Below, in pieces: positions 8,301 through 59,614 of a stretch of DNA of 64,000 nt. The DNA comes from a bacterium (GTDB lineage: Bacteria > Patescibacteriota > Microgenomatia > Daviesbacterales > UBA10151). A model generated the notes under the pieces. That model did no database searches. It saw only the letters and a program-made list of their open reading frames with translations, and was not told the origin of the DNA. Numbering within the stretch: the stretch's first letter is position 1; each line of letters starts with the position of its first letter. A program made the translations under genes and the position numbers. The DNA lies in NCBI GenBank assembly GCA_021786315.1, contig JAJYNN010000002.1, positions 204,402 through 268,401 of the forward strand, written 5' to 3'.

Positions 8301-11300
8301 CCGTTGTAATATTTCCGTTGCTTGTATTGAAGATTGGCAGATATAGGCCATAGGCGGTAGCAATGGTTCCGCTGGAAGTATTCTGAACTCTGATGTCTCC
8401 GCCTAAAGCGCCTGTGATTGTTCCGGCGTCATTGTTATTGGACTGAACTGCTATACCTGGTTGCCAGCTAATAGCTCCTGAAGAAGAATTATTGTTGGCA
8501 ATAAAAGTTCCCGGATAAATATTTTTGGCAGTAGTGGTAGTTAAATTAGCCAAATAACCGTAAGTGACAGCACTGGGAGCAATGGTCAGGTTTAAATTTG
8601 AATAAGTATTGGAATCAATACTTGACCCTCCCAGGGCCAATTTTCCCGATAGACTTTGGTTACCAACTACATCTAAAGCTTGGGAAGGTGCAGTTGTCCC
8701 AATACCTACATTGCCGCTCATTACTGCTAGGCCAGCTTGAGTGGGCATAGTGGAGACCCCAATGCCTAAGTTGCCTTTGACGTACATATTTCCATTAGTA
8801 ATATCGATAGCGGCTCGATCATCAATTCCGGTATTTACAAACCTTAAATTATTGCCTGAGGTGTCTAAAGTAGCCCCAGCATTGCGGAAATCAAGCTGAG
8901 TTAGTTTAGCTGTGCCCATCACATCCAAGAGGGAAGCAGGGCTGGTGGTCCCAATACCTACATTGCCGGATCCGATACCGTTGGTAATAGAAAGGCCGGA
9001 ATTAAGGGTAAACTGCTTGCCGATATCCCAGCCTAAAATGGCATTAGGAGTTTCTGTACCTCTTTCAAAGATCAGGTTCATAGGCTCGGTGTCAGCAGAA
9101 ACGTTATCCGCATTGATAGTCCAGTCAGCTGAATCAGTTTGGCCTCCGACAACCGTACCGACAAGGGAGGTGGCGTTGACAGTATCCGCATAAATTGTGC
9201 CAAACTTGACGCCGGCGGAACCGATGTCTAGCGATCCGGTAGAGGCACTGATAGCACCTGTCACAGTGGTAGCGCCAAGTCTGGCAGTGCCGGCAACATC
9301 AAGTTTATAGGTGGGGGAGGTAGTTCCAATGCCTACATTACCGTTGTTGAAATAGCTGGAGCCGGAGGCGTTAATGTTGATAGTTTTATTGCCGGAAGAG
9401 TAAAGGCCTATCCATCCGGCATCGACGGCATCTACTCCAACATAACCCAGACGGCCAAGTTCGTAGGTGGAATTTCTCCAGCTGACCATGTCCTGGTTAT
9501 CTTTTTGGATGGTCAGTAGGTAGTCAGGACTGGTTGTCCCAATACCCACATTGCCGGCAAGGTAGGAGTTGGAGGCGGAGGAGGAGTAGAGGGCATATTT
9601 GGTAGCCCCGACATCAATGGAATTATCCATATAGATACCGTATGAGGTATTGACTGTGCCGGAATTACTCCAGCCGGAAAGGTCTAAGCCTCTGAGGGTG
9701 GTGATGGTGGAGGCTCCGGAATTGCTAACATTTCCATATAAAGCAGAAGCAGTAGTCCAAGTTCCGCCACTGGAGTTGATCAGGTAACCTTCGACACCAT
9801 AACCGGTTGAGGTGGTGCCGGAATTAATAATGCTACCGTAGGCACCAGCACCGGTAGTAAGTGTTGCTCCGGTGACATTGGAAATTAGGCCAAAGGTTCC
9901 GAAACCGTTGGTGAAAGTGCCGGTGCTTTGGTTGTAGAGAGCTCCGGTAGCGCCGTAAGTATAGGTGATAGTACCGGAGGAAGTGTTATAGACACGGCTG
10001 TCCGATCCCATCATTGTTCTTTGGGTATTGGTGCCAGTAAAGTCCGATTCAAAGTAGCCGCCTTTGGCTGCGGGGTAGGGGCTGCCATTGTAGCCGCTGG
10101 TGACAGTGACTTTACCGTAGATGTTGTAGAGATTGGCAACTGACGGATTGGTATAGGTGGATTCTACATGCAAAGGAGCGATAGGGGAGGTTGTCCCAAT
10201 ACCTACATTTCCTCCTTCTTCAATGGTCATAGAAAATCTGGCAGGACCTCCATTGGGATAGGTCAAAAAGCTGGTTTTTGCCGGGCTTGGTTGGGTGTAG
10301 ATTGCAAATTCTTTTGTACCATCAACAGCATTAACCAGTGCCGTTGCATGGGTGCTTTGGTTATCAAAAAGGATATTTAAATCACCGTCAGGGTTGGTGT
10401 TATTAAATCTAGCTAAGTAGGTGCTACCTGAAACGTTTTTGGAGACATCGAGAGTGTAGGCTGGAGAAGTTGTCCCGATACCCAGATTGCCGGAGGAGTT
10501 GATGGTGATGCCGTTGCCGGCGGTGCCATTGGTGGTGAGGGCAATGGTATTGGCGCTTAAGCGGTAAAGTCCGGAGTCTGGGTCGTTAGTGAAGGTTAGG
10601 GCTGGGGAGGCAGCGGTACCGTCAGGCAGGTTTAAGACACTGCTGACCATTAAGGTAGCGTAGCCTGCAGTGGCTCCAGTGATGTTATTAATATAAGCAT
10701 TCTTCCAGTAGTGGTCGCCGTCGCCTAAAGATTCTACCCCGTTAGCCTCAGGGATGAGGTCGTTTGATAACCTGCCGACTATTTTGACATAGTCATCCCC
10801 GGATTCACCTAAGGTGGTTTGTCCAAGGACTTTTAAGTTACCCCCATTATCAACAGAAAACCTGTGGAGATACAGGCCGTAGTAGGGGTTCGTTGTTGTT
10901 CCGATGGTAGGTTTTACCGGCGGCGCCAATCCGGAGTTGGAAGGATAAACATTGCCGTAGGAGTCGATGATGGTTTTGCCGATAAAATCAACATAGGCGA
11001 TACCTTGGGGAAGGGAAGTGGAGATTTCGGTTAAGTTGGCATTAACGTTATCAATCTTTCTATCGGACTGCTTAATTTGTTGGGCCAGCTCTTTCCTGTT
11101 GGCGATAGTTTTGTCGTCAACCTCGATAATGGCGGTCTCATCCAGGTTAAACCTTTGATCATCCGAATTTTTATGAAATCCCAGGTCTTTGGCCTTGGCC
11201 GGGGCAAAGTTGGTAATAATGCTTTGGGCCAGGTTGTCAAACGGTTGAAGCAGGGAGGCAATAAACGATGGCTTGGAAGTGGAAGCTCCTAGCACTTGTT

Positions 11301-12240
11301 GGTTTTGTCTGATAGCAGCCACTGCTGACATGCTGATTTTCTGATCCTGCTGATTCTTTGATTCTCCGATCTTCTGGCTTTCTGAAGCTTGCCCGAAGAT
11401 CTGTTTGGTGCCTTGGGGGTTGACTGAATATCCGGTAACCAGAAAGGCGGTAATTAGCAGGGTAATGACGGCTAACCCGGCAACGAAGAATCCAGCTTTC
11501 CTGATGTAGTTTGGAATGGTTTGTGATATTTGATAAGTGCCGATAGTGATAATTTCGGGCTCGGAAGAAGAGACTGGAGAGCTGAGCAAGGCGTCACCTT
11601 GCCTGACGTCAAGGTGACGCCTTGCTTCTTCCTCGGGCTTGTTTGAGCTCGTGAATGTTGCCAGATCAACCTCCTTATATACCCTTTCACCGTCCTGGTT
11701 GCGGGAAGCAACGAGCTTACCGGCCTGGTCCCAGCGCCTTAAGGTTTTAGTGGAAACCCCTAAGTTTTTGGCGGCTGCGGAGATAGAGAGGACTTTGTCT
11801 AGGGCAACGGTATGGTTAGTGCTTTTAGAGCCGAATTTGAAAGCTTCCAGGGCTTCTTTGGAATAGAGTCTGGTTCCACCCGGAGTTCTGGTTGGGGTGA
11901 TCTTGCCGGTTTTCTCCCAGCGGCGGAGGGTATCAATGGAAATCTTGAGGTATTTGGCAGCCTCGCCGATGTGCATCAGAGTATCGGAGGATCGATGTGT
12001 CGGTGTATCGGAATTTCGGTGGGTCAGAGTATCAGTGTTTTGGTGTTTTGGTGTTTCGGAAGATTGGGTTTTGATCCAAGAGGGGGTAGAGTCGGAAATC
12101 CAGGGGTCTTGCGGGGCCTCCATGGTTTTGACTTTCTTGGTGGCGGCTTTCTTAGAAGCTTGTTTTTTTGTTGCGGAAACCAGGGGTTTAAAGACCAAAG
12201 AAGTGCTATTTTTTTTGGCAGTTGCAGACGGTTTTTTCAT
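2365..12240 (-). CDS. Giant 3291-aa membrane-anchored fibre/adhesin-like protein: two cytoplasmic MerR/excisionase-type HTH (HTH_17-like) motifs, one TM helix, about 20 'GNVGIGTTxPxxxLxV' beta-helix/tail-fibre-like repeats, C-terminal globular domain plus SAQLAST heptad coiled coil.
   Basis: Uninterrupted ORF in the six-frame track. HTH-like segments: IGEAAKYLKISIDTLRRWEKTGKI and ISAAAKNLGVSTKTLRRWDQAGKL. Hydrophobic segment: FFVAGLAVITLLITAFLVTGY. The repeat motif recurs about 20 times; the C-terminus has the coiled coil QLASTSAQLASNSAQLASTSAQL. Confidence 0.85.
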   Translation of the reverse strand: MKKPSATAKKNSTSLVFKPLVSATKKQASKKAATKKVKTMEAPQDPWISDSTPSWIKTQSSETPKHQNTDTLTHRNSDTPTHRSSDTLMHIGEAAKYLKISIDTLRRWEKTGKITPTRTPGGTRLYSKEALEAFKFGSKSTNHTVALDKVLSISAAAKNLGVSTKTLRRWDQAGKLVASRNQDGERVYKEVDLATFTSSNKPEEEARRHLDVRQGDALLSSPVSSSEPEIITIGTYQISQTIPNYIRKAGFFVAGLAVITLLITAFLVTGYSVNPQGTKQIFGQASESQKIGESKNQQDQKISMSAVAAIRQNQQVLGASTSKPSFIASLLQPFDNLAQSIITNFAPAKAKDLGFHKNSDDQRFNLDETAIIEVDDKTIANRKELAQQIKQSDRKIDNVNANLTEISTSLPQGIAYVDFIGKTIIDSYGNVYPSNSGLAPPVKPTIGTTTNPYYGLYLHRFSVDNGGNLKVLGQTTLGESGDDYVKIVGRLSNDLIPEANGVESLGDGDHYWKNAYINNITGATAGYATLMVSSVLNLPDGTAASPALTFTNDPDSGLYRLSANTIALTTNGTAGNGITINSSGNLGIGTTSPAYTLDVSKNVSGSTYLARFNNTNPDGDLNILFDNQSTHATALVNAVDGTKEFAIYTQPSPAKTSFLTYPNGGPARFSMTIEEGGNVGIGTTSPIAPLHVESTYTNPSVANLYNIYGKVTVTSGYNGSPYPAAKGGYFESDFTGTNTQRTMMGSDSRVYNTSSGTITYTYGATGALYNQSTGTFTNGFGTFGLISNVTGATLTTGAGAYGSIINSGTTSTGYGVEGYLINSSGGTWTTASALYGNVSNSGASTITTLRGLDLSGWSNSGTVNTSYGIYMDNSIDVGATKYALYSSSASNSYLAGNVGIGTTSPDYLLTIQKDNQDMVSWRNSTYELGRLGYVGVDAVDAGWIGLYSSGNKTININASGSSYFNNGNVGIGTTSPTYKLDVAGTARLGATTVTGAISASTGSLDIGSAGVKFGTIYADTVNATSLVGTVVGGQTDSADWTINADNVSADTEPMNLIFERGTETPNAILGWDIGKQFTLNSGLSITNGIGSGNVGIGTTSPASLLDVMGTAKLTQLDFRNAGATLDTSGNNLRFVNTGIDDRAAIDITNGNMYVKGNLGIGVSTMPTQAGLAVMSGNVGIGTTAPSQALDVVGNQSLSGKLALGGSSIDSNTYSNLNLTIAPSAVTYGYLANLTTTTAKNIYPGTFIANNNSSSGAISWQPGIAVQSNNNDAGTITGALGGDIRVQNTSSGTIATAYGLYLPIFNTSNGNITTAYGIWSKIRSGSSASGTISSASLYYGTGEVGNASGTIGTLYGLNLSGWSNSGTVNTSYGIYMDNSIDVGATKYALYSSSASNSYFAGNIGVGTTSPSQLLNVYSPNQGAIASIETAQANEYAELYLVSNGDMWSISHESNNNRLGIYEGSDERLSIKDGGNVGIGTTNPGVKLEVASSLGTLTSPSSVTNFRVRNDGSTSNNAGISIVSGNAASSYLLMGDNENDDIGFIEYNNTNNWMAFTTNGSEKLRINSAGNVGIGTTSPSTLLDVNGTSTFRGASTYNGNLTLNYSGTAVVGSPSTAYNSYALNLSSNEWNSATGNETKTAVIQMRPRTVNVNPTVATLSFDVGSATNILNLQDNGNVGIGTTAPATLFDINSKFNVLSSGNVGINKVTPGGTAASAKLHIVGDNVTNNAVLIAQQGVGTTYTNYRNGLLVGMGGDTNNHDVAIWSDGSSLGFIQSVQLSNSFKPLALNPNGGTVGVGYANPGTTAALAVNGNLGIGTTAPNYLLSVSNGATDYFTVDSTSATYNVPTSFTSSGDVSMAYDLNFTNPTASNIKSQAPLSITAGETFNSSDLSLNTYNAGSVNITQNNQPTASGTAYALQVLPNLTSSTNSLTYTAQYGTYSVPTVNLSGTSGTVTSLYNNYQGLTASAGTVTNWYGYYVAAPTGAGTVTNKYAFVSESGTGNVGIGTTAPEDLLSIVQPSAAYLSEIVRIANNNGSGSEELRLGVDTTGLFSFIQSTHQGTGQTPLILNGAGGNVGIGTTNPAYKFSVVAGTNANVYIGQDTINRGLLFFTDAANNEQYADLRAYDFTFKTNNLNRMFISQSGNVGIGTTSPQYLLDIGSGGAGYEVHINDDLKVEDLSQAGRMYTPGSLIIGDATTYQGATQPTYGALIQGNVGIGTTSPQSSLQVYGSTEGKGITVGGISTWADADILRMYSDGDTTSYIKRVEDSGDANGGYGLIRFETNANNAAYNGLGGFNFGKTSGPDYLRITNMGNVGIGTTNPVSLTNIFGNSSSNTSLLYLDQNSTGDAAMNFRIVGTTGWRMGIDNSDSDKFKISSSTLSDDFGTDYLTITTSGNIGIGTTNPSQLLHLNNGNLYVNGGTIGLSTTPDSAKQLYVDHTYSNTSGTEYGIFSNTRADFGGTAATTSVFGTHGQVILGANQLADSTSGDVAGGLFQVTHLGQATQGAAKALEAVVRVGYPGAGNAANILTNGYGLYVQSPNVDSAHSSSLVNAYGLFLEAQKATGVSTGYGIYQAGASDISYFAGNVGIGTTAPGNFSGLSFTGPILDVNGPIQTRTGTLNIGGSTYRKAAISTPTADAADPYLSFYVVPSGSSSTANEDMRIDKTGNIYLANINSSLGSATLFAGNAGNVGIGTTSPVQKLEVNGDFRLWRDGLNNMGLQVGFNNTNNITNMSFRDRTDTNYQDVFMEGKSWTFRYNGNSTAGLSIASTGAVSMNLRTTANTYALCHATNGPAMEEITDCNGSATDLAENYGTTDSSIEAGDLVIATGQAKVVADPHEGKPTSKAYMAKSSQPYQSNILGIISTNPNQLYGDDIFDPSENPRPVSLAGRVSLKVSTENGPIQTGDYITSSSISGVGMKATRPGQVVGKALQDYSGTGIGKILVLVNVTFADPSDILANLTLDTDGSLIVPKLKAGTLEIDGPATVNGSLQVADSSLNSSDLTSSGTPAAASSATPNYIEVASTLKTFDNQLATQSAQLASVTAQADVLSAQVASTSAQIASTSAQLASNSAQLASTSAQLAKVQSDVDSLKLTPPDTLLATTSAQLVDLKVTSDATISGKLEAYDTEIQNSFKSFGETTLGNTTIAGDLTQDGTLSITSGNTINSLGTLYLQSSPLADTVDFFNGQVTIDKTGRIVATEVVAKTVTTEKLNIANPVSGAEHIGTATIPAGATEIPVNTTATTANSKVFLTATSSTGGQALIVSYQEAGLGFIVSLDHTYASDIKFNWWIVDSSQ
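3000..3125. repeat. Tandem 21-nt repeat (about 5-6 units; ggccagttgggcggaggtgga-like) encoding the SAQLAST heptad coiled coil of the giant protein.
   Basis: Read directly on the plus strand: gccagttgggcggaggtggaagccagttgggcggagttggaagccaactgggcagaagtggaggcaatttgggcggaagttgaagc. Confidence 0.8.
8020..8200. repeat. Intragenic near-identical duplication, copy 1 of 2 (about 160-180 nt; encodes LSGWSNSGTVNTSYGIYMDNSIDVGATKYALYSSSASNSY.AGN.G.GTTSP).
   Basis: The same long nucleotide string (…ggaggcggaggaggagtagagggcatatttggtagccccgacatcaatggaatt.tccat.tagataccgta.gaggtattgactgtgccgga…) recurs at 9535-9700. Confidence 0.8.
9535..9700. repeat. Intragenic near-identical duplication, copy 2 of 2.
   Basis: See copy 1; protein segments ...LSGWSNSGTVNTSYGIYMDNSIDVGATKYALYSSSASNSY... 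occur twice in the giant ORF. Confidence 0.8.
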
Positions 12241-12300: not shown

Positions 12301-12442
12301 AGATTTATCTTAGACAATTATTATTATTGATGTCAATATATTATTTAGACAAGATGGATCTATTTTGTAAGTATTTTGTCCAACTACTTGCTAGGGTTTG
12401 ATATCACTTAAAAATACCCCAAAAGGTGGTGCTTTTTCTTAA

Positions 12443-12478
12443 AAGGCCACTCCCTCGCCGGATGGCAGGGGTGGCCTT
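12443..12478. repeat. Type-2 palindromic hairpin (aaggccac-N-gtggcctt), with covarying arms relative to the other copies.
   Basis: aaggccactccctcgccggatggcaggggtggcctt; the inner part cctcgccggatggcagg is shared with the 33207 copy. Confidence 0.6.
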
Positions 12479-12489
12479 ATGAAATTCTC

Positions 12490-12526
12490 AAGGTGACGCC
12501 TGCCTTGCGGACGAGGCGTCACCTTT
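12490..12526. repeat. Type-1 palindromic element (caaggtgacgcc...ggcgtcacctt).
   Basis: aaggtgacgcctgccttgcggacgaggcgtcacctt. Confidence 0.8.
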
Positions 12527-12887
12527 TAAGGGCTTAACGGCCTTTGATTCTGAGCGAGTAAAGATAAAGCTTCTAAAAGTTGGCAATGGGAAAGGTGGTA
12601 AAAAAAGGGATAAAAAAGTCCTAAGGCAGGAGTATCCGTCTGCTGCTACTCCTACCCTAGGACCAACTAACTGTTCTTAGTGTAAAGAAAAGTGAAAACC
12701 ATGTCAAGAGGTCGTTCTGTATCAAACTCCCTCAAAACTTTTACCGCATGACCATAAATAGCCTCAAAGTTACCCAAAGCTAACAAAGTCACTTGATCAT
12801 AATATATTTACACTATATCAAAATAGGTAAACTCTGAACCCATTTGATCTTGTGAAAACATGTAGTGAAAACTATCTATCCTTGCAA

Positions 12888-13115
12888 AAGGGCACTCCTT
12901 GGCGCAAGTTAAGGGGTGCCCTTGAGAATTGGAAAGCTAAGAATTTGTTTTGCGTCTTTTTTAGAAAAAGACGCCCAAAAATCGCCCACGGGAACGGTCC
13001 CTAAATTCTACGGCTTGCTGGTCGGGGGAAAGCTGCCCCCTCGATCACGGCTTTGCCGGATCGGCATCCCCCTGACAGCTTCGCCTAGAATTCTTAACGG
13101 GCTTACGTTCCAAGT
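12888..13115 (+). ncRNA. Candidate structured RNA/MITE element, copy A: 5' palindromic hairpin, 'gagaattggaaagctaag', stem-loops with covariation, 3' motif ttaacgggcttacgttcca.
   Basis: About 150 nt are virtually identical to copy B (22676-22980). Motifs are conserved, with compensatory stem changes, relative to copies C (33207-33438) and D (29191-29428). Confidence 0.4.
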
Positions 13116-15666: not shown

Positions 15667-15748
15667 AAAAGGTTTCTACTTAGCAATCCGCTATTTTTTC
15701 TGCTAGGCTATTAAAGTCCCAGATTAGGTTGTCGCAGAGCACTTTTAT

Positions 15749-15784
15749 AAGGTGACGCCTTGATGTACATCAAGGCGTCACCTT
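15749..15784. repeat. Type-1 palindromic element (perfect 36-nt palindrome).
   Basis: aaggtgacgccttgatgtacatcaaggcgtcacctt, flanked by ttata...gagaac. Confidence 0.85.
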
Positions 15785-15799
15785 GAGAACTCTTCTTGC

Positions 15800-16252: not shown

Positions 16253-16268
16253 TTGTTGCCTGCTTTAT

Positions 16269-16283
16269 AAGGTGACGCCTTGA
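16269..16283. repeat. Solo half-unit of the type-1 element (ttataaGGTGACGCCTTGAgaac), a single arm with no partner.
   Basis: Its flanks (ttataa...gagaac) are the same as those of the full hairpin at 15749; it sits just 5' of comEA. Confidence 0.7.
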
Positions 16284-22668: not shown

Positions 22669-22675
22669 TCTTAAA

Positions 22676-22980
22676 AGGGCACTCCTTGGCGTAAGGCAAG
22701 GGGTTACCCCTTCGGTTTGAGCCCTCAGGGTCGAAGACTTATGAATTGGAAAGGTATGGTTTTTCTTTTGCGTCTTTTTTAAGAACTTGCTCTCAAGTTC
22801 GCAAGACCTTGCGACAGCAAGCTGTCTTAAAAAAAGACGCCCAAAAATCGCCCACGGGAACGGTCCCTAAATTCTACGGCTTGCTGGTCGGGGGAAAGCT
22901 GCCCCCTCGATCACGGCTTTGCCGGATCGGCATCCCCCTGACAGCTTCGCCTAGAATTCTTAACGGGCTTGCGTTCCAGT
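22676..22980 (+). ncRNA. Candidate structured RNA/MITE element, copy B. It is identical to A over about 150 nt but carries an extra about 50-nt hairpin inserted in its first stem-loop.
   Basis: ...aagacgcccaaaaatcgcccacgggaacggtccctaaattctacggcttgctggtcgggggaaagctgccccctcgatcacggctttgccggatcggcatccccctgacagcttcgcctagaattcttaacgggcttgcgttcca. Confidence 0.4.
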
Positions 22981-24291: not shown

Positions 24292-25500
24292 TCAACAGCT
24301 TTCTAACACTTTGAGGGTTTCTCTGGCAGCTTTTTCCCAGGAGAATTTCTTGATTTGGGAAAATCCCTTATTGGAAAGTTCTTTTCGCAGCTTCGGATCG
24401 CTTGTCAGTTTACTGATTCCTTTGCTAATTTCCTCTTCCTGGTAAGGGTTGACGATGATGGCGGCGTTTCCGGCCACTTCCGGACAGCTGGAAGTATTGG
24501 AAGTTAAGACCGGGCAGCCGCAAGCCATGGCTTCCAGGATTGGCAAGCCAAAACCTTCAAACAGGGATGGGTAAAGGAAAGCTAAAGCCCCGGAATACAA
24601 AGCCGGAAGTTCCTCATCTGGAACATATCCTAAAAATTTAACCTGTTTTTCAATGCCTAATTCTTGGGGTAGGGAGTAAATCTCATCTGCCAGCCAGCCT
24701 TTGGAACCAGCCAAAACAAGCTGGAGTTTCTTATAAGGTGACGCCTTGACGTACGTTAAGGCGTCACCTTGAAAACCGGTCGCCCCTTGCTTTATAAATT
24801 TGGCATATGCTTTAATTAACTGTTCCAGGTTTTTTCTGGGTTGGATAGTTCCTACAAACAGGAAATAATTTTGATCTTCTAAGTTATATTTCTTTAGCGT
24901 TTGTCCTAATTGACTGCCCCTTACCGGTTTAAAAAGTTTTTCATTGTAACCCTCGTAAACAACAGTAATTTTATCTGCCGGTATCCCTACCTTATTAATT
25001 AAATCTTCTCTGGTGGACTTGGAAACGGCAATGATATGGGTAGCAGACTTCAATTGCCGGTGAGTCATAAAGTTTAAGTAAAGCCTTTGTTTTAATTGAT
25101 GGGTTCGAGGTAAATATTCCGCTCCCAAATCGTGGACTGTGACCACAGTTTTTAGGCCGGGTTTACGGAAAAGGGGGAGCGTGTGGGCGGGGATGAAAAG
25201 GACATCCAGATCTTTCTCTAAAAATGTTCTTTTCGCCAAGCCATACTGGGTCCAGAGCCTGTGCAAAGGTATGAGATCAGCCTCAAAATTAGCGGCTTCC
25301 GCTATCCCGGACCCGATCCGGGATCTAAATTCCTGGATCCCTGCTTTCGCAGGGACGATCCCGGAAAACGGACTTAAATAAACTTTATATTGATTCCGGT
25401 GGTCAATTTTAGCCAGATGAGAGAGTATCTGGTAGGAATAATTCTCTGTCCCTGTCCTTTTGCCTATAAAAGATCGGGATGCATCGTAGCCAATGATCAT
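24292..25500 (-). CDS. Family 1/4 glycosyltransferase carrying an in-frame palindromic-element insertion.
   Basis: C-terminal GT-B motif FEGFGLPILEAMACGCPV; the hairpin element encodes GFQGDALTYVKASPYK. Confidence 0.8.
   Translation of the reverse strand: MIIGYDASRSFIGKRTGTENYSYQILSHLAKIDHRNQYKVYLSPFSGIVPAKAGIQEFRSRIGSGIAEAANFEADLIPLHRLWTQYGLAKRTFLEKDLDVLFIPAHTLPLFRKPGLKTVVTVHDLGAEYLPRTHQLKQRLYLNFMTHRQLKSATHIIAVSKSTREDLINKVGIPADKITVVYEGYNEKLFKPVRGSQLGQTLKKYNLEDQNYFLFVGTIQPRKNLEQLIKAYAKFIKQGATGFQGDALTYVKASPYKKLQLVLAGSKGWLADEIYSLPQELGIEKQVKFLGYVPDEELPALYSGALAFLYPSLFEGFGLPILEAMACGCPVLTSNTSSCPEVAGNAAIIVNPYQEEEISKGISKLTSDPKLRKELSNKGFSQIKKFSWEKAARETLKVLESC
24735..24770. repeat. Type-1 palindromic element inserted in frame inside the GT4 gene.
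   Basis: aaggtgacgccttgacgtacgttaaggcgtcacctt lies within ORF 24292-25500, and the reading frame is maintained. Confidence 0.85.
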
Positions 25501-26632: not shown

Positions 26633-26741
26633 CTAAATTTTACTTCCGGGTTAACCCGATCACAAGACCTATTAAATATATAGAAATAGAACAAGAAGTA
26701 AAAGTTGAGAGTTATAAGCAGAGCTTGCGGCTGTTGGCCTA

Positions 26742-26778
26742 AAGGTGACGCCTTGCCTTACGACAAGGCGTCACCTTG
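26742..26778. repeat. Type-1 palindromic element.
   Basis: aaggtgacgccttgccttacgacaaggcgtcacctt. Confidence 0.85.
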
Positions 26779-29099: not shown

Positions 29100-29190
29100 T
29101 TTAACGTTTTTGGCTCTGCAAATACCCTAATCTACCTGCACTAGCAAAACTTCCACCTAATTGCCAATTTTCTGTCTTTTGTTCTTAAAG

Positions 29191-29428
29191 AAGGTGACCT
29201 CCTTGACGTTAGGCAAGGGGTCACCTTAAGAATTGAAAAGCTAATGTTTTTTTGCAACTTTGGTGGCAAAGTTGCGCAAAGCCACTTGCAGTGAAAGTCG
29301 ACCTAAAACCTTCATCAGTTGTCTAGCGGGAACTTTACCCTTCGGAAATTCGGCTACTTCGTAGCGTCAGTTTCCGCTTTCCCTGCTGCCAACTGACTTG
29401 GTTTTTTAACGGTCTTTGTTTCAATGCA
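29191..29428 (+). ncRNA. Candidate structured RNA/MITE element, copy D (the most divergent).
   Basis: aaggtgacctccttgacgttaggcaaggggtcacctt + aagaattgaaaagctaat + ttgcaactttggtggcaaagttgcgcaa ... ctagcgggaactttaccc ... ttttttaacggtctttgtttcaatgc. Confidence 0.35.
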
Positions 29429-33202: not shown

Positions 33203-33206
33203 AAAA

Positions 33207-33438
33207 AGGTGACTGCCTCGCCGGATGGCAGGCGTCACCTTAAGAACTGGAAAGCTAAGGTTATGTTCACGCTTTTGGCCGCAAAAGCGTGGGAAAACTC
33301 TGCTCGCAGAAAGTCGCCCTAAACCTCGTCATTTTCTAGTCGGGGGCTCACCCCCTCGGAAATTCACTGGTTGAGAGTTCAGTTTCCGGTTCCCCCTGAC
33401 AGAAAACTCCTCGGTTTTTAACGGGCTTGCGTTCCAGT
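33207..33438 (+). ncRNA. Candidate structured RNA/MITE element, copy C.
   Basis: aaggtgactgcctcgccggatggcaggcgtcacctt + aagaactggaaagctaag + cacgcttttggccgcaaaagcgtg ... ctagtcgggggctcaccccctcgg ... ccccctgacag ... ttaacgggcttgcgttccagt. Confidence 0.4.
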
Positions 33439-36822: not shown

Positions 36823-39216
36823 TTACTGGGTTGTTTGGCTGGGGGAAAGGACTGAAAAGAGGTTAGCGGAAGTCATATTACTGGCCTCGACTCCGGTGGT
36901 GGGGCTGACTTTTTGGTAGCCGATGACTGTTTTGGATACCTGCCCGGCAATCCCTAAGTCCCTATTCCCGTCAACCGTGGTTTCAATAATCCCCTCAGGC
37001 TGTTTGAAAGCTATATCCGGTTTGCCCCGAAGTAAATTATCCATTAGATCCCGCCAAATGGGGGTGGCTCCGGTAATTCCGGAAGATAGAGTCGGATCCA
37101 TTGGGGAATAATCGTTATTTCCCACCCAGGCGCCAACGACATATTCCGGGGTATAGCCGAAAGCCCAGTTGTCCCGTTTATCATCTGAAGTTCCGGTCTT
37201 GACAGCGACGGTGTGATCGGGAATATAAAGCTGGGAATTGGCCCCAAAAGCCGGAGTCCGGGCCCGGTTGTCAGATAAGACATTATTTAAAAGGTAGGCC
37301 ACCTCTTCGGTTAAAACTCTTTGTCCGGGATCATTTCGGTGGTCCTCTAAAACATTGCCTGAAGAATCGGTAACTGTCAGAATTGCCTGAGGTGCAAAGT
37401 GGACGCCACCGGAAGCCAAAGTCCCGTACACTCCCATCATCTCGATCATCCGGACAGCTTCACCCCCTAAAGTCAGAGACAATCCATACTCGGAAGTCCG
37501 GTTAAAGGTTGTAATACCCATATCTTTGGCTGTCTGGACCATAGCCGGAATGCCTACAATTGCCAGGGTCCGGACGGCGGGGATATTGTAGGAAGATCCA
37601 AGGGAAGTTCTGATGGGAACTGCGCCGTGGTACCTGCCGTCGTAATTTACCGGGGAATATCCTTGTCCCCAAGGGTTGGTGTAGGTCACGGGGGCATCCA
37701 GGATTACATTTCCCGGGGTCATGCCCTGTTTAAAGGCGGTGGCGTAAGTTACAACTTTGATGGAAGAGCCGGGTTGGCGTAGGGCTAAGGCGACGTTGTA
37801 GTTTCCGCCGGAAGGATCAAAGTAGTTTTTGGAGCCTACCATGGCTAAAATCCTGCCGGTTCTGGCATCGGTGATCATTGCTGCCCCGTTTCCGACTTTT
37901 AAGTCTTTCAGTTTATCAACTTCGGTGGCGACAACATTTTCCGCCATTTCCTGTAAATCAAGATCCAGGGTGGTGACAACCTTCAACCCCCCCTGGGAAA
38001 CGACTTTTTCCCCGTATCTTTGGGCCAGAAGATCCCGGACATACATTACAAAATGGGGGGCTTTGATATTGGTGACCGGGGGCTGGAAGGCAAGCTGGTC
38101 AGAGGATGCCTTGTCTGCATCTTTTTGGGAAATATACCCATCCTCAACCATTCTTCTTAAAACTTCCTGCTGCCTTTCCCGGCCCTTTTCGGGGTGGGTT
38201 CCGTAAGGGGAGTATTCACTGGGGGCAGCGGGTAAACCTGCCAGGTAAGCGCTTTCGGCCAAGCTTAAGTCTTTGGCGTCTTTGCCAAAATACATCTTGG
38301 CGGCAGCCTGCACTCCCCAGGCTGGGCCGCCGTAAGGTGAACTGTTTAAGTACATTTCCAGGATCTGGTCCTTGGAGTAGATCCGTTCTGCCCAAAAAGC
38401 TAAAATGGCTTCCTTAATCTTGCGGGCAAAAGTTTTATCGGGGGTTAAAAGGGAATTTTTAGCCAGTTGCTGGGTTAAGGTCGATCCCCCCTGTAAAGGA
38501 TCAGCTTGATCGGAAACCAATACGCCTTGGGAAGATAAATTATGTTGGAGGGCCCGGGCGACTCCGGCGGGATCAATCCCGGGGTGGGTATAAAAATGCT
38601 TGTCCTCGATGGCAATTGTGGCTTGGATTAAATAAGGGGGAAGGTCGGAAAGTTTTACCGGCTGGCGGTTTCGGCCTTCATAAAGTTGGTACAAGACCCG
38701 GCCCTTGCGGTCTAAAATTGTGGTGGTGGAAGCGGTATTGGCAGTGATTAAAGATTCCGGGGAGGGGAGCTGGCTGGCAATTTTGGCCACACAAACTGAG
38801 TAAAAAATCAGGAGGAGAAAAACGCTCAAAGCAGCAATTCTTAAGCGGGAACGTTTAGGGATAATTTTATCAAAATTTTTCCTGGCCTTTCGCAGATAAA
38901 ATTCCTTAAAAGGTGTGGTCCGGGGACGGCCTCTTCCTTTTTTAAAACCTATTTTTCTCAAGGGCACCCCGTGCCTTGCGACAAGAAGTGCCCTTGCAAG
39001 AGGTCCAACGATGCCTCTTAACAATTGAATTGTCTTGATAAAAAGGAGAAGAGCTAGTAATCCAATGACCTGAAAAGGGATAAGGGGGGAAAATTTGAGC
39101 CACAAGCCCCCTCTTGTCGGATTTCTTTTTCTTTTGCTGGTAGAAGGTTGTGTTTTGCTCATTAACACCAGCTGGAGGGCAGTCCAAGGGGATTTTCCCT
39201 GCTCTCCTAACCTCAT
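36823..39216 (-). CDS. Class A penicillin-binding protein (glycosyltransferase plus transpeptidase), copy 1. The N-terminus may be over-called: a palindromic element is encoded at its 5' end.
   Basis: GT51 motifs (EDKHFYTHPGID, GGSTLTQQL) and TP motifs (SSIK, KTGT). TM LRIAALSVFLLLIFYSVCVA. Confidence 0.8.
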   Translation of the reverse strand: MRLGEQGKSPWTALQLVLMSKTQPSTSKRKRNPTRGGLWLKFSPLIPFQVIGLLALLLFIKTIQLLRGIVGPLARALLVARHGVPLRKIGFKKGRGRPRTTPFKEFYLRKARKNFDKIIPKRSRLRIAALSVFLLLIFYSVCVAKIASQLPSPESLITANTASTTTILDRKGRVLYQLYEGRNRQPVKLSDLPPYLIQATIAIEDKHFYTHPGIDPAGVARALQHNLSSQGVLVSDQADPLQGGSTLTQQLAKNSLLTPDKTFARKIKEAILAFWAERIYSKDQILEMYLNSSPYGGPAWGVQAAAKMYFGKDAKDLSLAESAYLAGLPAAPSEYSPYGTHPEKGRERQQEVLRRMVEDGYISQKDADKASSDQLAFQPPVTNIKAPHFVMYVRDLLAQRYGEKVVSQGGLKVVTTLDLDLQEMAENVVATEVDKLKDLKVGNGAAMITDARTGRILAMVGSKNYFDPSGGNYNVALALRQPGSSIKVVTYATAFKQGMTPGNVILDAPVTYTNPWGQGYSPVNYDGRYHGAVPIRTSLGSSYNIPAVRTLAIVGIPAMVQTAKDMGITTFNRTSEYGLSLTLGGEAVRMIEMMGVYGTLASGGVHFAPQAILTVTDSSGNVLEDHRNDPGQRVLTEEVAYLLNNVLSDNRARTPAFGANSQLYIPDHTVAVKTGTSDDKRDNWAFGYTPEYVVGAWVGNNDYSPMDPTLSSGITGATPIWRDLMDNLLRGKPDIAFKQPEGIIETTVDGNRDLGIAGQVSKTVIGYQKVSPTTGVEASNMTSANLFSVLSPSQTTQ
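38957..38998. repeat. Variant palindromic element (caagggcaccccgtgccttg...gtgcccttg) at the 5' end of the PBP ORF (in frame or 5'-UTR).
   Basis: ctcaagggcaccccgtgccttgcgacaagaagtgcccttgcaag. Confidence 0.6.
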
Positions 39217-54839: not shown

Positions 54840-55400
54840 ATGATTGAAGCAGTTTTGCTTGATTTTGGTGGTGTTGTTTTTCGTAATAAAGAAGAGTATG
54901 AAGGGCCTAAGGGTCAACTACAAATTGATCCGGAGCTTTGGTACCAGGCTCGTTTGGGTCAAATTGACGATGATGTAGCCTTTACTTCTATTGGTAAAAA
55001 CTATGGCGTAGATTCTGCAACAGTTTTAAACTGGCTTCTTTCTAAAAGAGAACCAAACCAAGAGCTTTTGGATTTACTTGTTCAGCTTAGACCAGGTATT
55101 AAAACAGCAGTAATCAATAACGGGCTCAAATCTCTATTTCACGGTTTATTAGATAAATATAATCTTAAGAATCGATTTAATGTATTGGTTAATTCAGCTG
55201 AAGAAGGCGTTGAAAAGCCAAATCCAGAAATATTCTTAAGAACTTGTCGTAAGCTAGAAGTTGCACCAGAAGCATGCTTAATGGCTGATGATGACCAAAA
55301 ACTTTTGGAAGGTGTAGAAAACCTAGGGATTAAAACCATATTGTTTAGCGGCGTGTCGGACTTAAGAAAAATGTTTGAAGATTTAAACTTATTAGTTTAA
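54840..55400 (+). CDS. HAD-superfamily hydrolase.
   Basis: N-terminal LLDFGGV (DxG motif); C-terminal ADD motif. Confidence 0.6.
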   Translation: MIEAVLLDFGGVVFRNKEEYEGPKGQLQIDPELWYQARLGQIDDDVAFTSIGKNYGVDSATVLNWLLSKREPNQELLDLLVQLRPGIKTAVINNGLKSLFHGLLDKYNLKNRFNVLVNSAEEGVEKPNPEIFLRTCRKLEVAPEACLMADDDQKLLEGVENLGIKTILFSGVSDLRKMFEDLNLLV

Positions 55401-56255
55401 ATTCTTAATAGGAAAATCAGGGTAACCCCGAAGAAAATCTGCTAACTTTGCAGGGTTTTTGCCTTCCATTTGGACCAATTCACCCGGGAAAAATTTTACA
55501 ATTTTTCCATTCCATTTGGTCCAGGCATTGGGCCAGGGATAATAGGCCCGGATCATCCGGTCCAATTTTTCCGGAGTTGGGGGATTCCCAATATCGAAAT
55601 ACCCGTCCTCTTTATTAATAATTTTTGTAAAAGTTGCCTCTTCTTCATTTTGGGGTTTTAAATCCACTTTCCCTGCAATAAACTGGGGAATAATATCAAC
55701 CAAAAGGGGAATTGTTTCCTGAGTCATTTTTGTGTTCAAAGATTCAAAAGTATCTGTATTTGATAAGCTAATCTCCTTTGTTGCAAGGACTGGACCGTGA
55801 TCTAGTTTGATATCCATTTGCATGATGGAGGTACCGGAGGTTTTATCACCGTTTAAAATGGCTGCCTGGATGGGAGAAGCCCCGCGGTACTTAGGTAAAA
55901 GTGAATAATGGATATTTATAACTCCAAATTTAGGAATATCTAAAACATTTTGGGGAATAATTTTCCCATAAGCCGCCACAATAAATAAATCAGCATTGAG
56001 CTTTTTTAGCTCCAGAGCAGCCTCATTGTCCAGTCTCTCAGGCTTGTGCAAGGTGACGCCTTGCGCCGCAAGGGGACGCCTTGCGTTCGTGGCGACGGCG
56101 GAGGGAGTTAATATTTGTTTACGGCCAATCTTTTGGTCGGGTCCCGTAACTATCCCAACAACCTGAAAATTTTCCTCCAAAGCTTCTAAAATGGGAACCA
56201 CGAAGGCTGGAGTTCCAAAAAACACGATTTTGATAGACTTATCCATAATTTTCAA
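55392..56255 (-). CDS. fmt: Methionyl-tRNA formyltransferase containing a direct repeat of the palindrome unit in frame.
   Basis: IVFFGTP ... NIHYSLLPKYRGASPIQ. The segment ATNARRPLAAQGVTLHKP is encoded by caaggtgacgccttgcgccgcaaggggacgccttg. Confidence 0.85.
   Translation of the reverse strand: MKIMDKSIKIVFFGTPAFVVPILEALEENFQVVGIVTGPDQKIGRKQILTPSAVATNARRPLAAQGVTLHKPERLDNEAALELKKLNADLFIVAAYGKIIPQNVLDIPKFGVINIHYSLLPKYRGASPIQAAILNGDKTSGTSIMQMDIKLDHGPVLATKEISLSNTDTFESLNTKMTQETIPLLVDIIPQFIAGKVDLKPQNEEEATFTKIINKEDGYFDIGNPPTPEKLDRMIRAYYPWPNAWTKWNGKIVKFFPGELVQMEGKNPAKLADFLRGYPDFPIKNLN
56049..56083. repeat. Two direct copies of the 15-nt unit CAAGG(T/G)GACGCCTTG inside fmt.
   Basis: caaggtgacgccttg cgccg caaggggacgccttg. 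Confidence 0.7.
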
Positions 56256-56257
56256 TT

Positions 56258-56350
56258 ACCAAGTACCAATTTACAATTAATTTTTAATGATCCAATTTTC
56301 GAAATTTGAAAATTGTAAATTGACTAAAAATTGAAAATTGTAAATTGAAA
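56258..56350. repeat. AT-rich intergenic low-complexity repeat (gaaaattgtaaattgaaaatt-like units).
   Basis: Similar units occur at about 2100-2170, 16910-17035, 18045-18150, 20995-21068, 25505-25612, 27555-27655, 39240-39330 and 63910-64000. Confidence 0.6.
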
Positions 56351-56354
56351 ATTG

Positions 56355-56917: not shown

Positions 56918-57045
56918 GCTGGGTAAGTCGCCGCATAGGGCTACTTGGCTTCGCCAAGATCCTGTGTGGCATCTTTCTTGAGTTGACTGAGACGCCACAT
57001 AAGTCTACTTTGACTTCGTCAAAGATCTTGTGTGGAGGTTTCTCT
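56918..57045. repeat. Two tandem hairpin-containing repeats of about 45 nt (cttggcttcgccaagatcctgtgtgg / ctttgacttcgtcaaagatcttgtgtgg), related to the hairpin at 21663.
   Basis: Direct visual comparison; shared core ttgacttcgtcaaa..gatcttg. Confidence 0.55.
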
Positions 57046-57294
57046 GAGTTGTTTTAACCTCCACATGAACACTTTGGCCTTGGATTTGGCTGAGGTATAG
57101 CCTTTGGCATATGTTAGGGCCTGGTCCAAAAGGCCCCGGCTATATTGTTTAGCCAGCTTGATATAGAGGGAATAATGTTTGGTGTCACCTAATTCTTCCG
57201 CTAAATAAACTCCGTAAACCTGGAACTCCTGGGATAAATTCTTGGGGCGGTCAGGGTGTTTTTGCTGGTCGATGATCTGGCCTATACTCTTCAT
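57019..57294 (-). CDS. Hypothetical small protein (91 aa).
   Basis: ORF only. Confidence 0.3.
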   Translation of the reverse strand: MKSIGQIIDQQKHPDRPKNLSQEFQVYGVYLAEELGDTKHYSLYIKLAKQYSRGLLDQALTYAKGYTSAKSKAKVFMWRLKQLRETSTQDL

Positions 57295-57323
57295 GTTTTT
57301 TCAAGGTGTCACCTTATGAATTG

Positions 57324-59495: not shown

Positions 59496-59502
59496 TTTTT
59501 AC

Positions 59503-59538
59503 AAGGTGACGCCTTGACGTACGTTAAGGCGTCACCTT
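59503..59538. repeat. Type-1 palindromic element.
   Basis: aaggtgacgccttgacgtacgttaaggcgtcacctt, identical to the intragenic GT4 copy. Confidence 0.85.
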
Positions 59539-59614
59539 AAGAAACGCCAACGACTGTCAACATACTACCAAAACTCCTTGTGAATTAGAAGCCTCTCTGG
59601 TACACTCAACTCAC

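What the first reader, a model, noticed from the sequence alone, without database searches (positions are those of the whole stretch)
56049..56083. fmt contains two direct copies of the repeat unit in frame
caaggtgacgccttg-cgccg-caaggggacgccttg encodes ATNARRPLAAQGVTLHKP in Fmt, roughly replacing the segment E. coli has as VKVLAEEKGLPVFQP, and adds about 3 aa. This is a second example of the repeat family residing in coding sequence, here as direct rather than inverted units.
Basis: seen in the sequence. Interest (0 to 1): 0.5.

Follow-up and report, generated by a model that had tools for sequence, protein, structure and literature searches.

The report
Palindromic repeat embedded in-frame in fmt
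A short hairpin-forming repeat that is scattered between genes in this Daviesbacteria (CPR) genome has become a translated part of the essential enzyme Fmt, and related species carry other versions of the same repeat at the same spot, much like the palindromic elements known from Rickettsia genes.

Summary
Window 56049-56063 matches the 15-nt unit CAAGGTGACGCCTTG 15/15, and 56069-56083 matches 14/15. They score 27.6 and 21.9 bits on a matrix built from the other copies; random windows reach about 13 bits.

The units lie inside an intact fmt gene (55392-56246, minus strand) and encode ARRPL-AA-QGVTL. The net gain is 4 aa at the helix alpha2/strand beta3 junction, and the second unit now supplies strand beta3.

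The usual form of the family is a 38-nt palindrome of two inverted units. It sits in every kind of intergenic context. It also sits in frame in a glycosyltransferase, in a giant surface protein and probably in a PBP1.

The closest Fmt relative (74% nt identity) carries the perfect 38-mer at the same fmt site. Other Daviesbacteria carry other subfamilies of CAAGG-N5-CCTTG hairpins there, interspersed in the Fmt tree with canonical GIPV forms.

My reading is a REPIN-like or RPE-like mobile hairpin element that has been absorbed into coding sequence at a permissive surface loop that is repeatedly remodelled. The mobilising enzyme and the origin of the direct arrangement are unresolved.

This is a new variant of a known kind, of moderate interest.

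The parts
55392..56246 (-). fmt (methionyl-tRNA formyltransferase) CDS, 284 aa, intact
   Evidence: Pfam Formyl_trans_N and Formyl_trans_C. Exact protein is on record in NCBI/ENA. The invariant N111, H113, D145 and D149 columns are conserved in the 40-sequence alignment. AF2 mean pLDDT 95.9.
56069..56083 (-). Repeat unit, first in the coding direction (coding strand CAAGGCGTCCCCTTG). 14/15 to consensus. Read in codon phase 2 as (A55)-R56-R57-P58-L59. Forms the end of helix alpha2 plus the inserted kink.
   Evidence: PWM 21.9 bits. Same variant, orientation and frame (ARRP) as the first unit in the Fmt of L084.
56064..56068 (-). 5-nt spacer (coding strand CGGCG) between the two direct units. 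Canonical pairs have an 8-nt spacer.
56049..56063 (-). Repeat unit, second in the coding direction (coding strand CAAGGCGTCACCTTG). 15/15 to consensus. Read in phase 0 as Q62-G63-V64-T65-L66. Takes the place of the conserved xGIPV turn and strand beta3.
   Evidence: PWM 27.6 bits. HMMER alignment to 4iqf and 5uai. DSSP strand at residues 65-67 in the AF2 model.
56057..56057 (.). The only difference in 18,609 nt between the window and the sibling assembly L092. G here versus A there on the coding strand, in the loop of the second unit; changes V64 to I64.
   Evidence: P0001 versus P0361.
24734..24771 (-). Canonical 38-nt palindrome in frame in a GT4 glycosyltransferase (24292-25500, minus strand). 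Encodes QGDALTYVKASPY in a helix-to-strand loop.
   Evidence: The Pfam Glycos_transf_1 match spans residues 204-379, across the insert. The loop is hypervariable in 119 homologues. RNA fold z = -6.7.
11587..11624 (-). Inverted pair in the opposite arrangement, in frame in the 3291-aa ORF. Encodes ARRHLDVRQGDAL in the linker between two MerR/HTH domains and the membrane segment.
38957..38995 (-). Subfamily-2 pair (GGGCAC loops), probably in frame in the N-terminal tail of a PBP1 ORF (36823-39216, minus strand). Encodes ARALLVARHGVPLR.
   Evidence: (D11). The start codon is not verified.
59502..59539 (.). Canonical intergenic 38-nt palindrome between the divergent Wzy-like gene and mreB. Identical 38/38 to the copy inside the fmt of L081. 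Absent from the orthologous spacer in L082.
   Evidence: (z = -7.8).
57302..57316 (.). Single degenerate unit in the 29-nt spacer between two co-directional genes.
15748..15785 (.). Intergenic inverted pair between tandem genes.
16268..16282 (.). Single intergenic unit.
26741..26778 (.). Intergenic inverted pair between divergent genes.
12489..12526 (.). Intergenic inverted pair, slightly degenerate.
29190..29228 (.). Degenerate intergenic pair between convergent genes.
   Evidence: D16, D20.
33204..33246 (.). Variant hairpin with the same outer arms (AAGGTGAC...GTCACCTT) between convergent genes.
   Evidence: D19.
12886..12928 (.). Subfamily-2 pair (AAGGGCACTCCTT / AAGGGGTGCCCTT). Related copies lie at 12441-12483 and 22673-22715.
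   Evidence: D10, D19.

Best explanation
The 35-nt segment is a rearranged copy of this genome's hairpin repeat. The repeat is a 15-nt unit, CAAGG-TGACG-CCTTG, normally found as two inverted units 8 nt apart, giving a 38-nt palindrome. The copy has become translated sequence of a functional Fmt.

Shown:
- Sequence identity to the family.
- An intact fmt gene.
- The location of the change, at the alpha2/beta3 junction.
- Homologous or analogous copies at the same site in relatives.
- Other in-frame copies in unrelated genes.
- Gain and loss of intergenic copies between relatives.

Inferred:
- The family behaves as a non-autonomous mobile hairpin element of the REP/REPIN kind. It lands anywhere and survives in genes only under three conditions: the added length keeps the frame, the frame read has no stop, and the site is a permissive helix-to-strand surface loop on the side of the Rossmann fold away from the catalytic crevice.
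- In the lineage of the window and L081, an inverted pair was present at this fmt site.
- In the window it was later remodelled. The loop of one unit was inverted, the spacer was shortened by 3 nt, and compensating flanking indels changed the reading frame. This destroyed the long hairpin and recruited unit 2 as the G-V-T-L turn and strand beta3. From then on it evolves as protein sequence, as the V64I polymorphism suggests.

Not established: whether copies arrive by transposition (for example by a RAYT-like Y1 transposase, which exists in related genomes) or by gene conversion from other copies.
For: - Family membership. The units match 15/15 and 14/15 and score 27.6 and 21.9 bits, against a mean random-window maximum of about 13 bits. 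GC is 0.69 in the segment versus 0.42 for the gene.
- Family anatomy and contexts. There are 20 AAGG-N5-CCTT motifs versus 2.9 expected. Pairs occur in divergent, tandem and convergent spacers.
- Same site in relatives.
  - L081 fmt has the perfect 38-mer, 38/38 identical to window 59502-59539, although fmt overall is 73.9% identical.
  - L084 has an inverted pair whose first unit shares the variant and frame (ARRP) of the window's first unit.
  - L089, L002, L090, L093, L094, L095 and L096 have other loop subfamilies there. Each matches copies found elsewhere in Daviesbacteria loci.
- The site aligns collinearly, unit-spacer-unit, between the window and L081.
- The Fmt tree interleaves insert-bearing and canonical forms with support. 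{P17, P31, P77} has 97/97 and P31+P77 has 88/97; {P9, P20, P35, P41} has 87/97; {P24, P29} has 95/97.
- In-frame copies in other genes. In the window: GT, the giant ORF, and PBP1 (probable). In relatives: L084 TGT and a second site in L089 Fmt.
- Only one open frame per strand exists in the 38-mer. This explains why the identical peptide QGDALTYVKASPY appears in the window GT and in L081 Fmt.
- The long hairpin is lost in the window's fmt copy (z = -1.5). It is kept in the GT copy, the intergenic copy, and the L081 and L084 fmt copies (z = -4.4 to -7.8).
- The protein looks functional. pLDDT is 95.9, dipping to 85 at residues 51-60, and residues 65-67 form a strand.
- Intergenic copies are present or absent at orthologous spacers.
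Against: - No transposase, target-site duplication or empty-site/filled-site pair at close range was found, so mobility is inferred only from distribution.
- No Y1_Tnp homologue is in the window.
- The RAYT-like genes seen in relatives are flanked by a different hairpin, CCACC...GGTGG.
- The segment is not a simple insertion. It replaces about 8 canonical residues as well as adding residues. A gene-conversion or replacement route is therefore as plausible as transposition.
- The same KLASQG... prefix in many lineages could reflect one old event plus allelic recombination, rather than many insertions.
- A single-protein NJ tree is weak evidence for the number of events.
Confidence: 0.8

Rival explanations
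1. The hairpins are functional cis-elements kept by selection at the DNA or RNA level. Candidates are a binding site for a conserved protein, a DNA-uptake-type signal, or an mRNA stability or termination hairpin. On this view the fmt copy is maintained because that signal is needed inside the def-fmt region, not because a selfish element landed there.
For: - The 38-mer is 38/38 identical between genomes whose fmt is only 74% identical.
- The same fmt site carries hairpins in many species, and the CAA codon is used 11/11 times there.
- Pairs are strongly folding (z down to -7.8).
- Relatives encode type IV pilus and competence-like genes near fmt.
Against: - The window's own fmt copy has lost the long hairpin (z = -1.5), and a sibling strain carries a loop substitution.
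- Loops differ freely between species at this site.
- Many Daviesbacteria Fmt have the canonical GIPV sequence and no hairpin.
- Copies occur in divergent, tandem and convergent spacers alike. No single promoter or terminator role fits.
- Unit density is only about 1 per 3.8 kb.
- No Rfam family matches.
Confidence: 0.12
2. The elements do not transpose. Short palindromes arise and spread by gene conversion or template switching between quasi-palindromes. The fmt site is a recombination hot spot that repeatedly copies sequence from other hairpins, because a resident CAAGG...CCTTG stem provides homology.
For: - The window copy looks like a chimera. Its left unit resembles L084's and its right unit resembles L081's. 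One loop is exactly inverted apart from one base.
- The single SNP in 18.6 kb between sibling assemblies falls inside the unit. The chance of that is about 35/18609.
- Different loop subfamilies share the same stems at the site.
Against: - Conversion cannot explain the first arrival at sites with no prior stem, such as window 59502-59539, which is absent in L082.
- The 5-bp stems are very short substrates for homologous recombination.
Confidence: 0.25
3. The resemblance is coincidental or convergent: ordinary coding evolution of a variable Fmt loop happened to produce repeat-like sequence.
For: The region is length-variable in Fmt generally. NCC, TTR and CAA codons are common in this genome.
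Against: - The expected number of chance matches is far below 1, yet two adjacent copies are present.
- The perfect 38-mer is present at the same site in L081.
- The identical 13-aa peptide occurs in an unrelated glycosyltransferase.
Confidence: 0.01

Closest known systems
Rickettsia palindromic elements (RPEs; review PMC10969869)
   Same: Palindromic repeats found both between genes and inserted in frame into unrelated housekeeping genes. The added peptide sits where the fold tolerates it, and the same element yields the same peptide in different proteins.
   Different: - RPEs are about 100-150 bp and add tens of residues. Here the element is 35-38 nt and adds 12-13 residues, for a net gain of 4-8.
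- The host is a CPR bacterium, not an alphaproteobacterium.
- Here the same orthologous site is occupied by different subfamilies in different species, and part of the element replaces a conserved strand rather than only adding a loop.
REP sequences / REPINs mobilised by RAYT transposases (PMC3116915, PMC3337134)
   Same: Short hairpin units occur mostly as inverted doublets separated by a short spacer, forming one long hairpin. Singlets also occur. Copies are scattered in intergenic spacers. The sequence is conserved across related genomes while individual insertions differ. RAYT-like Y1_Tnp genes exist in related Daviesbacteria.
   Different: - Units are shorter (15 nt) and lack the conserved GTAG head.
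- A substantial fraction of loci are inside genes.
- No cognate RAYT flanked by this unit was found. The Y1_Tnp in L089 is below the NCBIfam RAYT cut-off (45.7 vs 80 bits) and is flanked by a different hairpin.
Prokaryotic MITEs that make in-frame fusions (for example Coxiella QMITE1, PMC5896051; intragenic ERIC and BOX elements, PMC10969869)
   Same: Small non-autonomous repeats that can be read through as part of host ORFs.
   Different: No terminal inverted repeats plus target-site duplication could be defined here, and no parent IS is known. The element is essentially just the hairpin.

Membership tests
Methionyl-tRNA formyltransferase (host gene) | Formyl_trans_N and Formyl_trans_C domains, with the conserved N/H/D catalytic columns. 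| tested here: met
   Pfam 1.1e-38 and 5.6e-08. Best PDB hits are all Fmt, with E down to 6e-52. N111, H113, D145 and D149 are invariant columns.
REP/REPIN | Short hairpin-forming units arranged as inverted doublets with a short spacer, able to fold as one long hairpin. | tested here: met
   Six pairs with 15+8+15 architecture. Fold z = -6.7 to -7.8.
REP/REPIN | Predominantly extragenic, many copies per genome. | tested here: inconclusive
   About 10 of 14 loci in the 64-kb window are intergenic and 3-4 are genic. The genome-wide count is not available.
REP/REPIN | A cognate single-copy RAYT (Y1 HUH transposase) gene flanked by the same REP units. | tested here: inconclusive
   No Y1_Tnp is in the window (tblastn). 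None of the top 120 homologues lies on a contig of the window's size. The RAYT-like genes in L089 and L002 are flanked by other hairpins.
REP/REPIN | Conserved GTAG tetranucleotide at the unit's 5' end. | tested here: not met
   Units read [CT]AAGGTGACGCCTT[GA], with no GTAG.
Rickettsia palindromic elements | A palindromic repeat inserted in frame in several unrelated protein-coding genes, giving a conserved peptide. | tested here: met
   Fmt, GT, the giant ORF, and PBP1 (probable). QGDALTYVKASPY occurs in both the window GT and L081 Fmt.
Rickettsia palindromic elements | Element length of about 100-150 bp, sequence homology to RPE families, Rickettsia host. | tested here: not met
   Element length is 35-38 nt. 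The host is Daviesbacteria, judged from the Fmt and GT hits.
MITE | Terminal inverted repeats plus target-site duplication. | tested here: inconclusive
   The flanks show a loose TTTA...AGAA pattern but no clear duplication. No close empty site was available.
DNA uptake sequence (DUS/USS-like) | A very high density (about 1 per kb) of one short motif, in genes and spacers, largely as single copies. | tested here: not met
   17 units in 64 kb, mostly as pairs. Several subfamilies coexist.

The most novel reading that the evidence does not exclude
In Daviesbacteria, and perhaps more widely in CPR bacteria, tiny hairpin repeats of the CAAGG-N5-CCTTG superfamily may be a pervasive and recurrent source of lineage-specific loops in essential proteins (Fmt, TGT, glycosyltransferases, PBPs). 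Particular helix-to-strand loops would be re-used again and again by different subfamilies. This would require either true site preference of the insertion machinery or repeated conversion. The elements would sometimes be read in different frames in sister species and even be recruited as core secondary structure.
Probability: 0.35. Interest if true: 0.7.

Novelty: new variant of a known kind. Interest (0 to 1): 0.55.

Why it matters
In-frame palindromic elements are textbook for Rickettsia but are otherwise treated as curiosities. Here the same phenomenon appears in a CPR lineage, with far smaller REPIN-like elements.

Three features stand out:
- It hits an essential translation enzyme.
- It recurs at the same structural position in many species.
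- Part of the repeat now encodes a core beta strand.

If this is general, it would explain part of the unusual length variation of CPR housekeeping proteins. It would also give a tractable natural system for asking how selfish hairpin DNA is turned into protein sequence, and whether RAYT-like transposases drive it.

There is a practical consequence. Such segments can mislead gene callers, alignments and phylogenies of marker proteins from these genomes.

Tried and rejected
Only 2 Daviesbacteria loci came back. I switched to exact-protein look-ups.
- The metagenome scan for the canonical pair gave only 4 loci. Two look like ordinary T-tailed terminators in unrelated DNA. The exact family is therefore lineage-restricted, and nothing more was learned about mobility.
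- Viral contigs gave no match for either arrangement.
- Rfam gave only 5 tRNAs in the window and no family for the hairpins.
- The RAYT link was not established.
  - tblastn with the L089 Y1_Tnp found no homologue in the window.
  - The third homologue search found a large Microgenomates family, but no member on a contig of the window's length.
  - The flanking hairpins in L089 and L002 are of another type.
- I considered using NCC codon choice as evidence for DNA-level stem conservation. I dropped it because NCC codons are the preferred ones in this genome, at 44-52%. Only the CAA 11/11 count remains as weak support.
- I tried to define the exact insertion boundaries and a target-site duplication from glycosyltransferase homologues. 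The loop is hypervariable in all of them, and no close insert-free relative exists.
- The promoter/operator idea was set aside. A TTGACG in the spacer looks like a -35 box, but there is no convincing -10 box and copies also lie between convergent genes.

Full report
**1. The observation**

Window 56049-56083 reads caaggtgacgccttg-cgccg-caaggggacgccttg. It lies in the ORF 55392-56246 on the minus strand. That ORF has Formyl_trans_N (1.1e-38) and Formyl_trans_C (5.6e-08), and its best solved relatives are all methionyl-tRNA formyltransferases.

The coding strand reads gCA AGG CGT CCC CTT Gcg gcg CAA GGC GTC ACC TTG, which translates to A-R-R-P-L-A-A-Q-G-V-T-L. The two units start 20 nt apart, so they are read in different codon phases.

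Significance of the match:
- The unit CAAGGKGACGCCTTG occurs 17 times at <=2 mismatches, against 0.24 expected.
- A weight matrix built from the 15 non-fmt units scores the fmt units at 27.6 and 21.9 bits. This is inside the training range of 21.1-27.6. The best score per random window averaged 12.8 bits.
- The segment has 69% G+C in a 42% G+C gene.

An independent ENA assembly (L092) is identical to the window over 18,609 nt except for one base. The segment is therefore real, not an assembly artefact.

**2. The repeat family**

The typical form is an inverted pair of units 8 nt apart, for example TAAGGTGACGCCTTG-ACGTACGT-TAAGGCGTCACCTTG. This is a 38-nt palindrome that folds as one long hairpin, with z = -6.7 to -7.8. 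Each unit is itself a 5-bp stem (CAAGG/CCTTG) with a 5-nt loop. 'Direct' versus 'inverted' is therefore decided by the loop alone.

The motif AAGG-N5-CCTT occurs 20 times in the window, against 2.9 expected. A second subfamily with GGGCAC-type loops is also present.

Copies lie between divergent, tandem and convergent genes. This argues against a single promoter or terminator role. No Rfam family matches them.

Copies are gained or lost at orthologous spacers:
- The pair at 59502-59539, just upstream of the Wzy-like gene, is absent from the alignable spacer in L082.
- The unit at 57302-57316 is absent in L082 and L084.

**3. Other in-frame copies**

The fmt copy is not the second genic copy but at least the third.

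- *Glycosyltransferase.* The palindrome at 24734-24771 is read through in a GT4 glycosyltransferase as QGDALTYVKASPY. The Glycos_transf_1 match spans the insert.
- *Giant ORF.* The pair at 11587-11624 is read as ARRHLDVRQGDAL in the 3291-aa ORF, between two MerR/HTH domains and the membrane segment.
- *PBP1 (probable).* A subfamily-2 pair at 38957-38995 is probably read as ARALLVARHGVPLR in the N-terminal tail of a PBP1.
- *Related loci.* The same happens in a TGT gene (L084) and at a second site of Fmt (L089).

The 38-mer has only one stop-free frame per strand. This explains why unrelated proteins receive the same peptide.

**4. What it replaces in Fmt**

HMMER alignment to solved Fmt sequences gives ...AVATNARRPLAAQGVTLHKPERL versus ...PVKVEAEK----HGIPVLQPLRI. 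The first unit encodes the end of helix alpha2 plus a 4-residue insert. The second unit (QGVTL) occupies the position of the conserved xGIPV turn and strand beta3.

An AlphaFold2 model built on 40 homologues is confident overall (pLDDT 95.9). Its lowest internal block is residues 51-60, at 85. It places a strand at residues 65-67 (T-L-H), which is sequence encoded by the repeat. The catalytic columns are conserved, so the gene looks functional.

Both the Fmt site and the glycosyltransferase site are helix-to-strand connections of Rossmann-type folds. From general knowledge of that fold, such connections lie on the face opposite the ligand-binding crevice. This is an inference; I did not measure it.

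**5. The same site in relatives**

Fmt hits identify the organism as a Candidatus Daviesbacteria relative. In a 40-sequence alignment this spot is the most length-variable part of the N-terminal domain. DNA of the homologues shows why.

| Locus (protein) | Sequence at the fmt site | Note |
|---|---|---|
| L081 (P0002) | Perfect canonical 38-mer, read as QGDALTYVKASPY | Closest relative: 73.9% nt identity in fmt. Copy is 38/38 identical to window 59502-59539. |
| L084 | CAAGGCGTCCCCGTG-TAGCCTTG-CAAGGGGATGCCTTA, read as ARRPRVALQGDAL | First unit shares variant, orientation and frame with the window's first unit. |
| L089 | CCAAGGGGACGCCTTGG | |
| L002 | CAAGGGGACGTCTTA plus a second hairpin | |
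| L090, L094 | CAAGGCCAGGCCTTA | In L090 it is followed by AGGGGTGTCCC. That composite also occurs intergenically in L001. |
| L096 | 29-nt perfect hairpin AGCTTCGCAAGGATACACCTTGCGAAGCT | Loop equals that of the copy at the other Fmt site of L089. |
| L095 | CAAGGAGAGTCCTTG | Unit also occurs elsewhere in L089. |
| L001 and many others | Canonical AQKYGIPVLKPEKL | No hairpin. |

I built a neighbour-joining tree of 120 Fmt sequences with the variable site masked. Insert-bearing and canonical forms interleave in it, with bootstrap support (97 replicates) for mixed clades:
- {P0017, P0031, P0077}: 97/97, with P0031+P0077 at 88/97
- {P0009, P0020, P0035, P0041}: 87/97
- {P0024, P0029}: 95/97
- {P0012, P0015, P0045, P0067}: 80/97

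A canonical GIPV segment cannot plausibly be regenerated from an insert. The pattern therefore implies repeated events at this site: insertions, conversions or allelic exchange. A single-gene tree is limited evidence for how many.

**6. Origin of the direct arrangement**

The window and L081 are sisters (88/97). Their sites align collinearly, unit-spacer-unit. They differ in four ways:
- Unit 1 has its loop inverted. CGTCC differs by one base from the reverse complement of TGACG.
- The spacer is 3 nt shorter.
- Flanking gaps of 2 and 7 nt shift the element into another reading frame.
- The long hairpin is lost (z = -1.5, against -7.2 in L081).

The window's left unit looks like L084's and its right unit like L081's. 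Two routes are plausible:
- loop inversion by template switching within the small hairpin;
- deletion from an alternating array of units.

I cannot decide between them.

The only difference between the window and its sibling assembly in 18.6 kb falls in the loop of unit 2 and gives the conservative change V64I in strand beta3. One SNP is only an anecdote. It is compatible either with protein-level evolution of an absorbed element or with an elevated mutation or conversion rate at the repeat.

**7. Mechanism of spread**

The architecture is that of REP doublets, or REPINs (PMC3116915, PMC3337134). A 222-aa Y1_Tnp gene sits next to mreB in L089 and has a homologue in L002.
- It hits the NCBIfam RAYT model only below the cut-off (45.7 vs 80 bits).
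- It belongs to a large Microgenomates family.
- It is flanked by a different hairpin.
- No homologue is in the window.

A RAYT-type mobilisation is therefore a reasonable hypothesis, not a finding. The exact palindrome is rare outside this lineage: 4 metagenome loci, 2 of them ordinary terminators, and no viral contigs.

**8. Comparison with what is known, and verdict**

In effect, the closest known system is the Rickettsia palindromic element, which inserts in frame into many unrelated genes (PMC10969869). In anatomy, the closest is the REPIN.

The elements here differ in these respects:
- They are far smaller, at 35-38 nt.
- They lack the GTAG head of REPs.
- They are in a CPR lineage. The held literature returned no report of such elements there.
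- Different subfamilies occupy the same orthologous site in different species.
- In the window, one unit has replaced a conserved strand.

I rate this a new variant of a known kind, with moderate interest.

Noticed in passing
window 56057: The single base difference in 18,609 nt between the window and the sibling ENA assembly (L092) falls inside the loop of a repeat unit in fmt. It changes V64 to I64. The chance of that placement is about 0.2%.
   Followed up: partly
L089 4244-4912 (minus strand); L002 3-569: A 222-aa Y1_Tnp (RAYT-like) gene lies next to mreB. It is flanked on both sides by CCACCTGGAAGGTGG hairpins with GTAGC/GCTAC nearby. It belongs to a large, well-conserved Microgenomates family, and no copy is in the window.
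   Followed up: partly
window 24292-25500 and homologues P0122-P0240: The helix-to-strand loop of this glycosyltransferase is hypervariable across Daviesbacteria, with 0 to about 50 extra residues. Many inserts carry recurring peptides (RQDP, ARTSDG, APRRVPA, PSAPRND) that look like translations of other repeat families.
   Followed up: partly
L084 11213-11254; L089 10797-10826: Further in-frame hairpin repeats in housekeeping genes of relatives. One is a pair in TGT (LQGETLRGTARSPLA). The other is a 12-bp-stem hairpin at a second site of Fmt (NPSQLHKDTPCEA).
   Followed up: yes
window 12956-13112 and 22822-22978: Two 157-nt copies at 97% identity, each just downstream of a subfamily-2 hairpin and a shared AGAAYTGGAAAGCTAAG motif. 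They are G+C-rich and look structured. There is no Rfam match and their nature is unknown.
   Followed up: no
window 56247-56353 (def-fmt spacer); also 2110, 16905, 18032, 20987, 25501, 27519, 39270, 63905: An A+T-rich repeat of the type AAATTGTAAATTGAAAATT recurs in many spacers next to gene starts. It may be a promoter or UP-like region.
   Followed up: no
window 56929-57051: A 66-nt tandem repeat (1.9 copies, 80% match) between def and the upstream small gene. Each copy contains a small CTTGG/CTTTGA...CCAAG/TCAAAG hairpin.
   Followed up: no
window 2365-12240 (minus strand): A giant 3291-aa ORF with two N-terminal MerR/HTH domains, a membrane segment and more than 13 internal repeats sharing a conserved core of about 30 nt (GTTGTCCCGATACCCACATTGCC on the plus strand).
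   Followed up: no
Fmt homologues P0002, P0003, P0013, P0029, P0024, P0070 (alignment A1 columns about 320-370): Two further variable-length sites in the Fmt C-terminal half, after WTKW and before LVQMEGK. They carry lineage-specific inserts, some with repeat-like peptides such as ...RQNDK.
   Followed up: no
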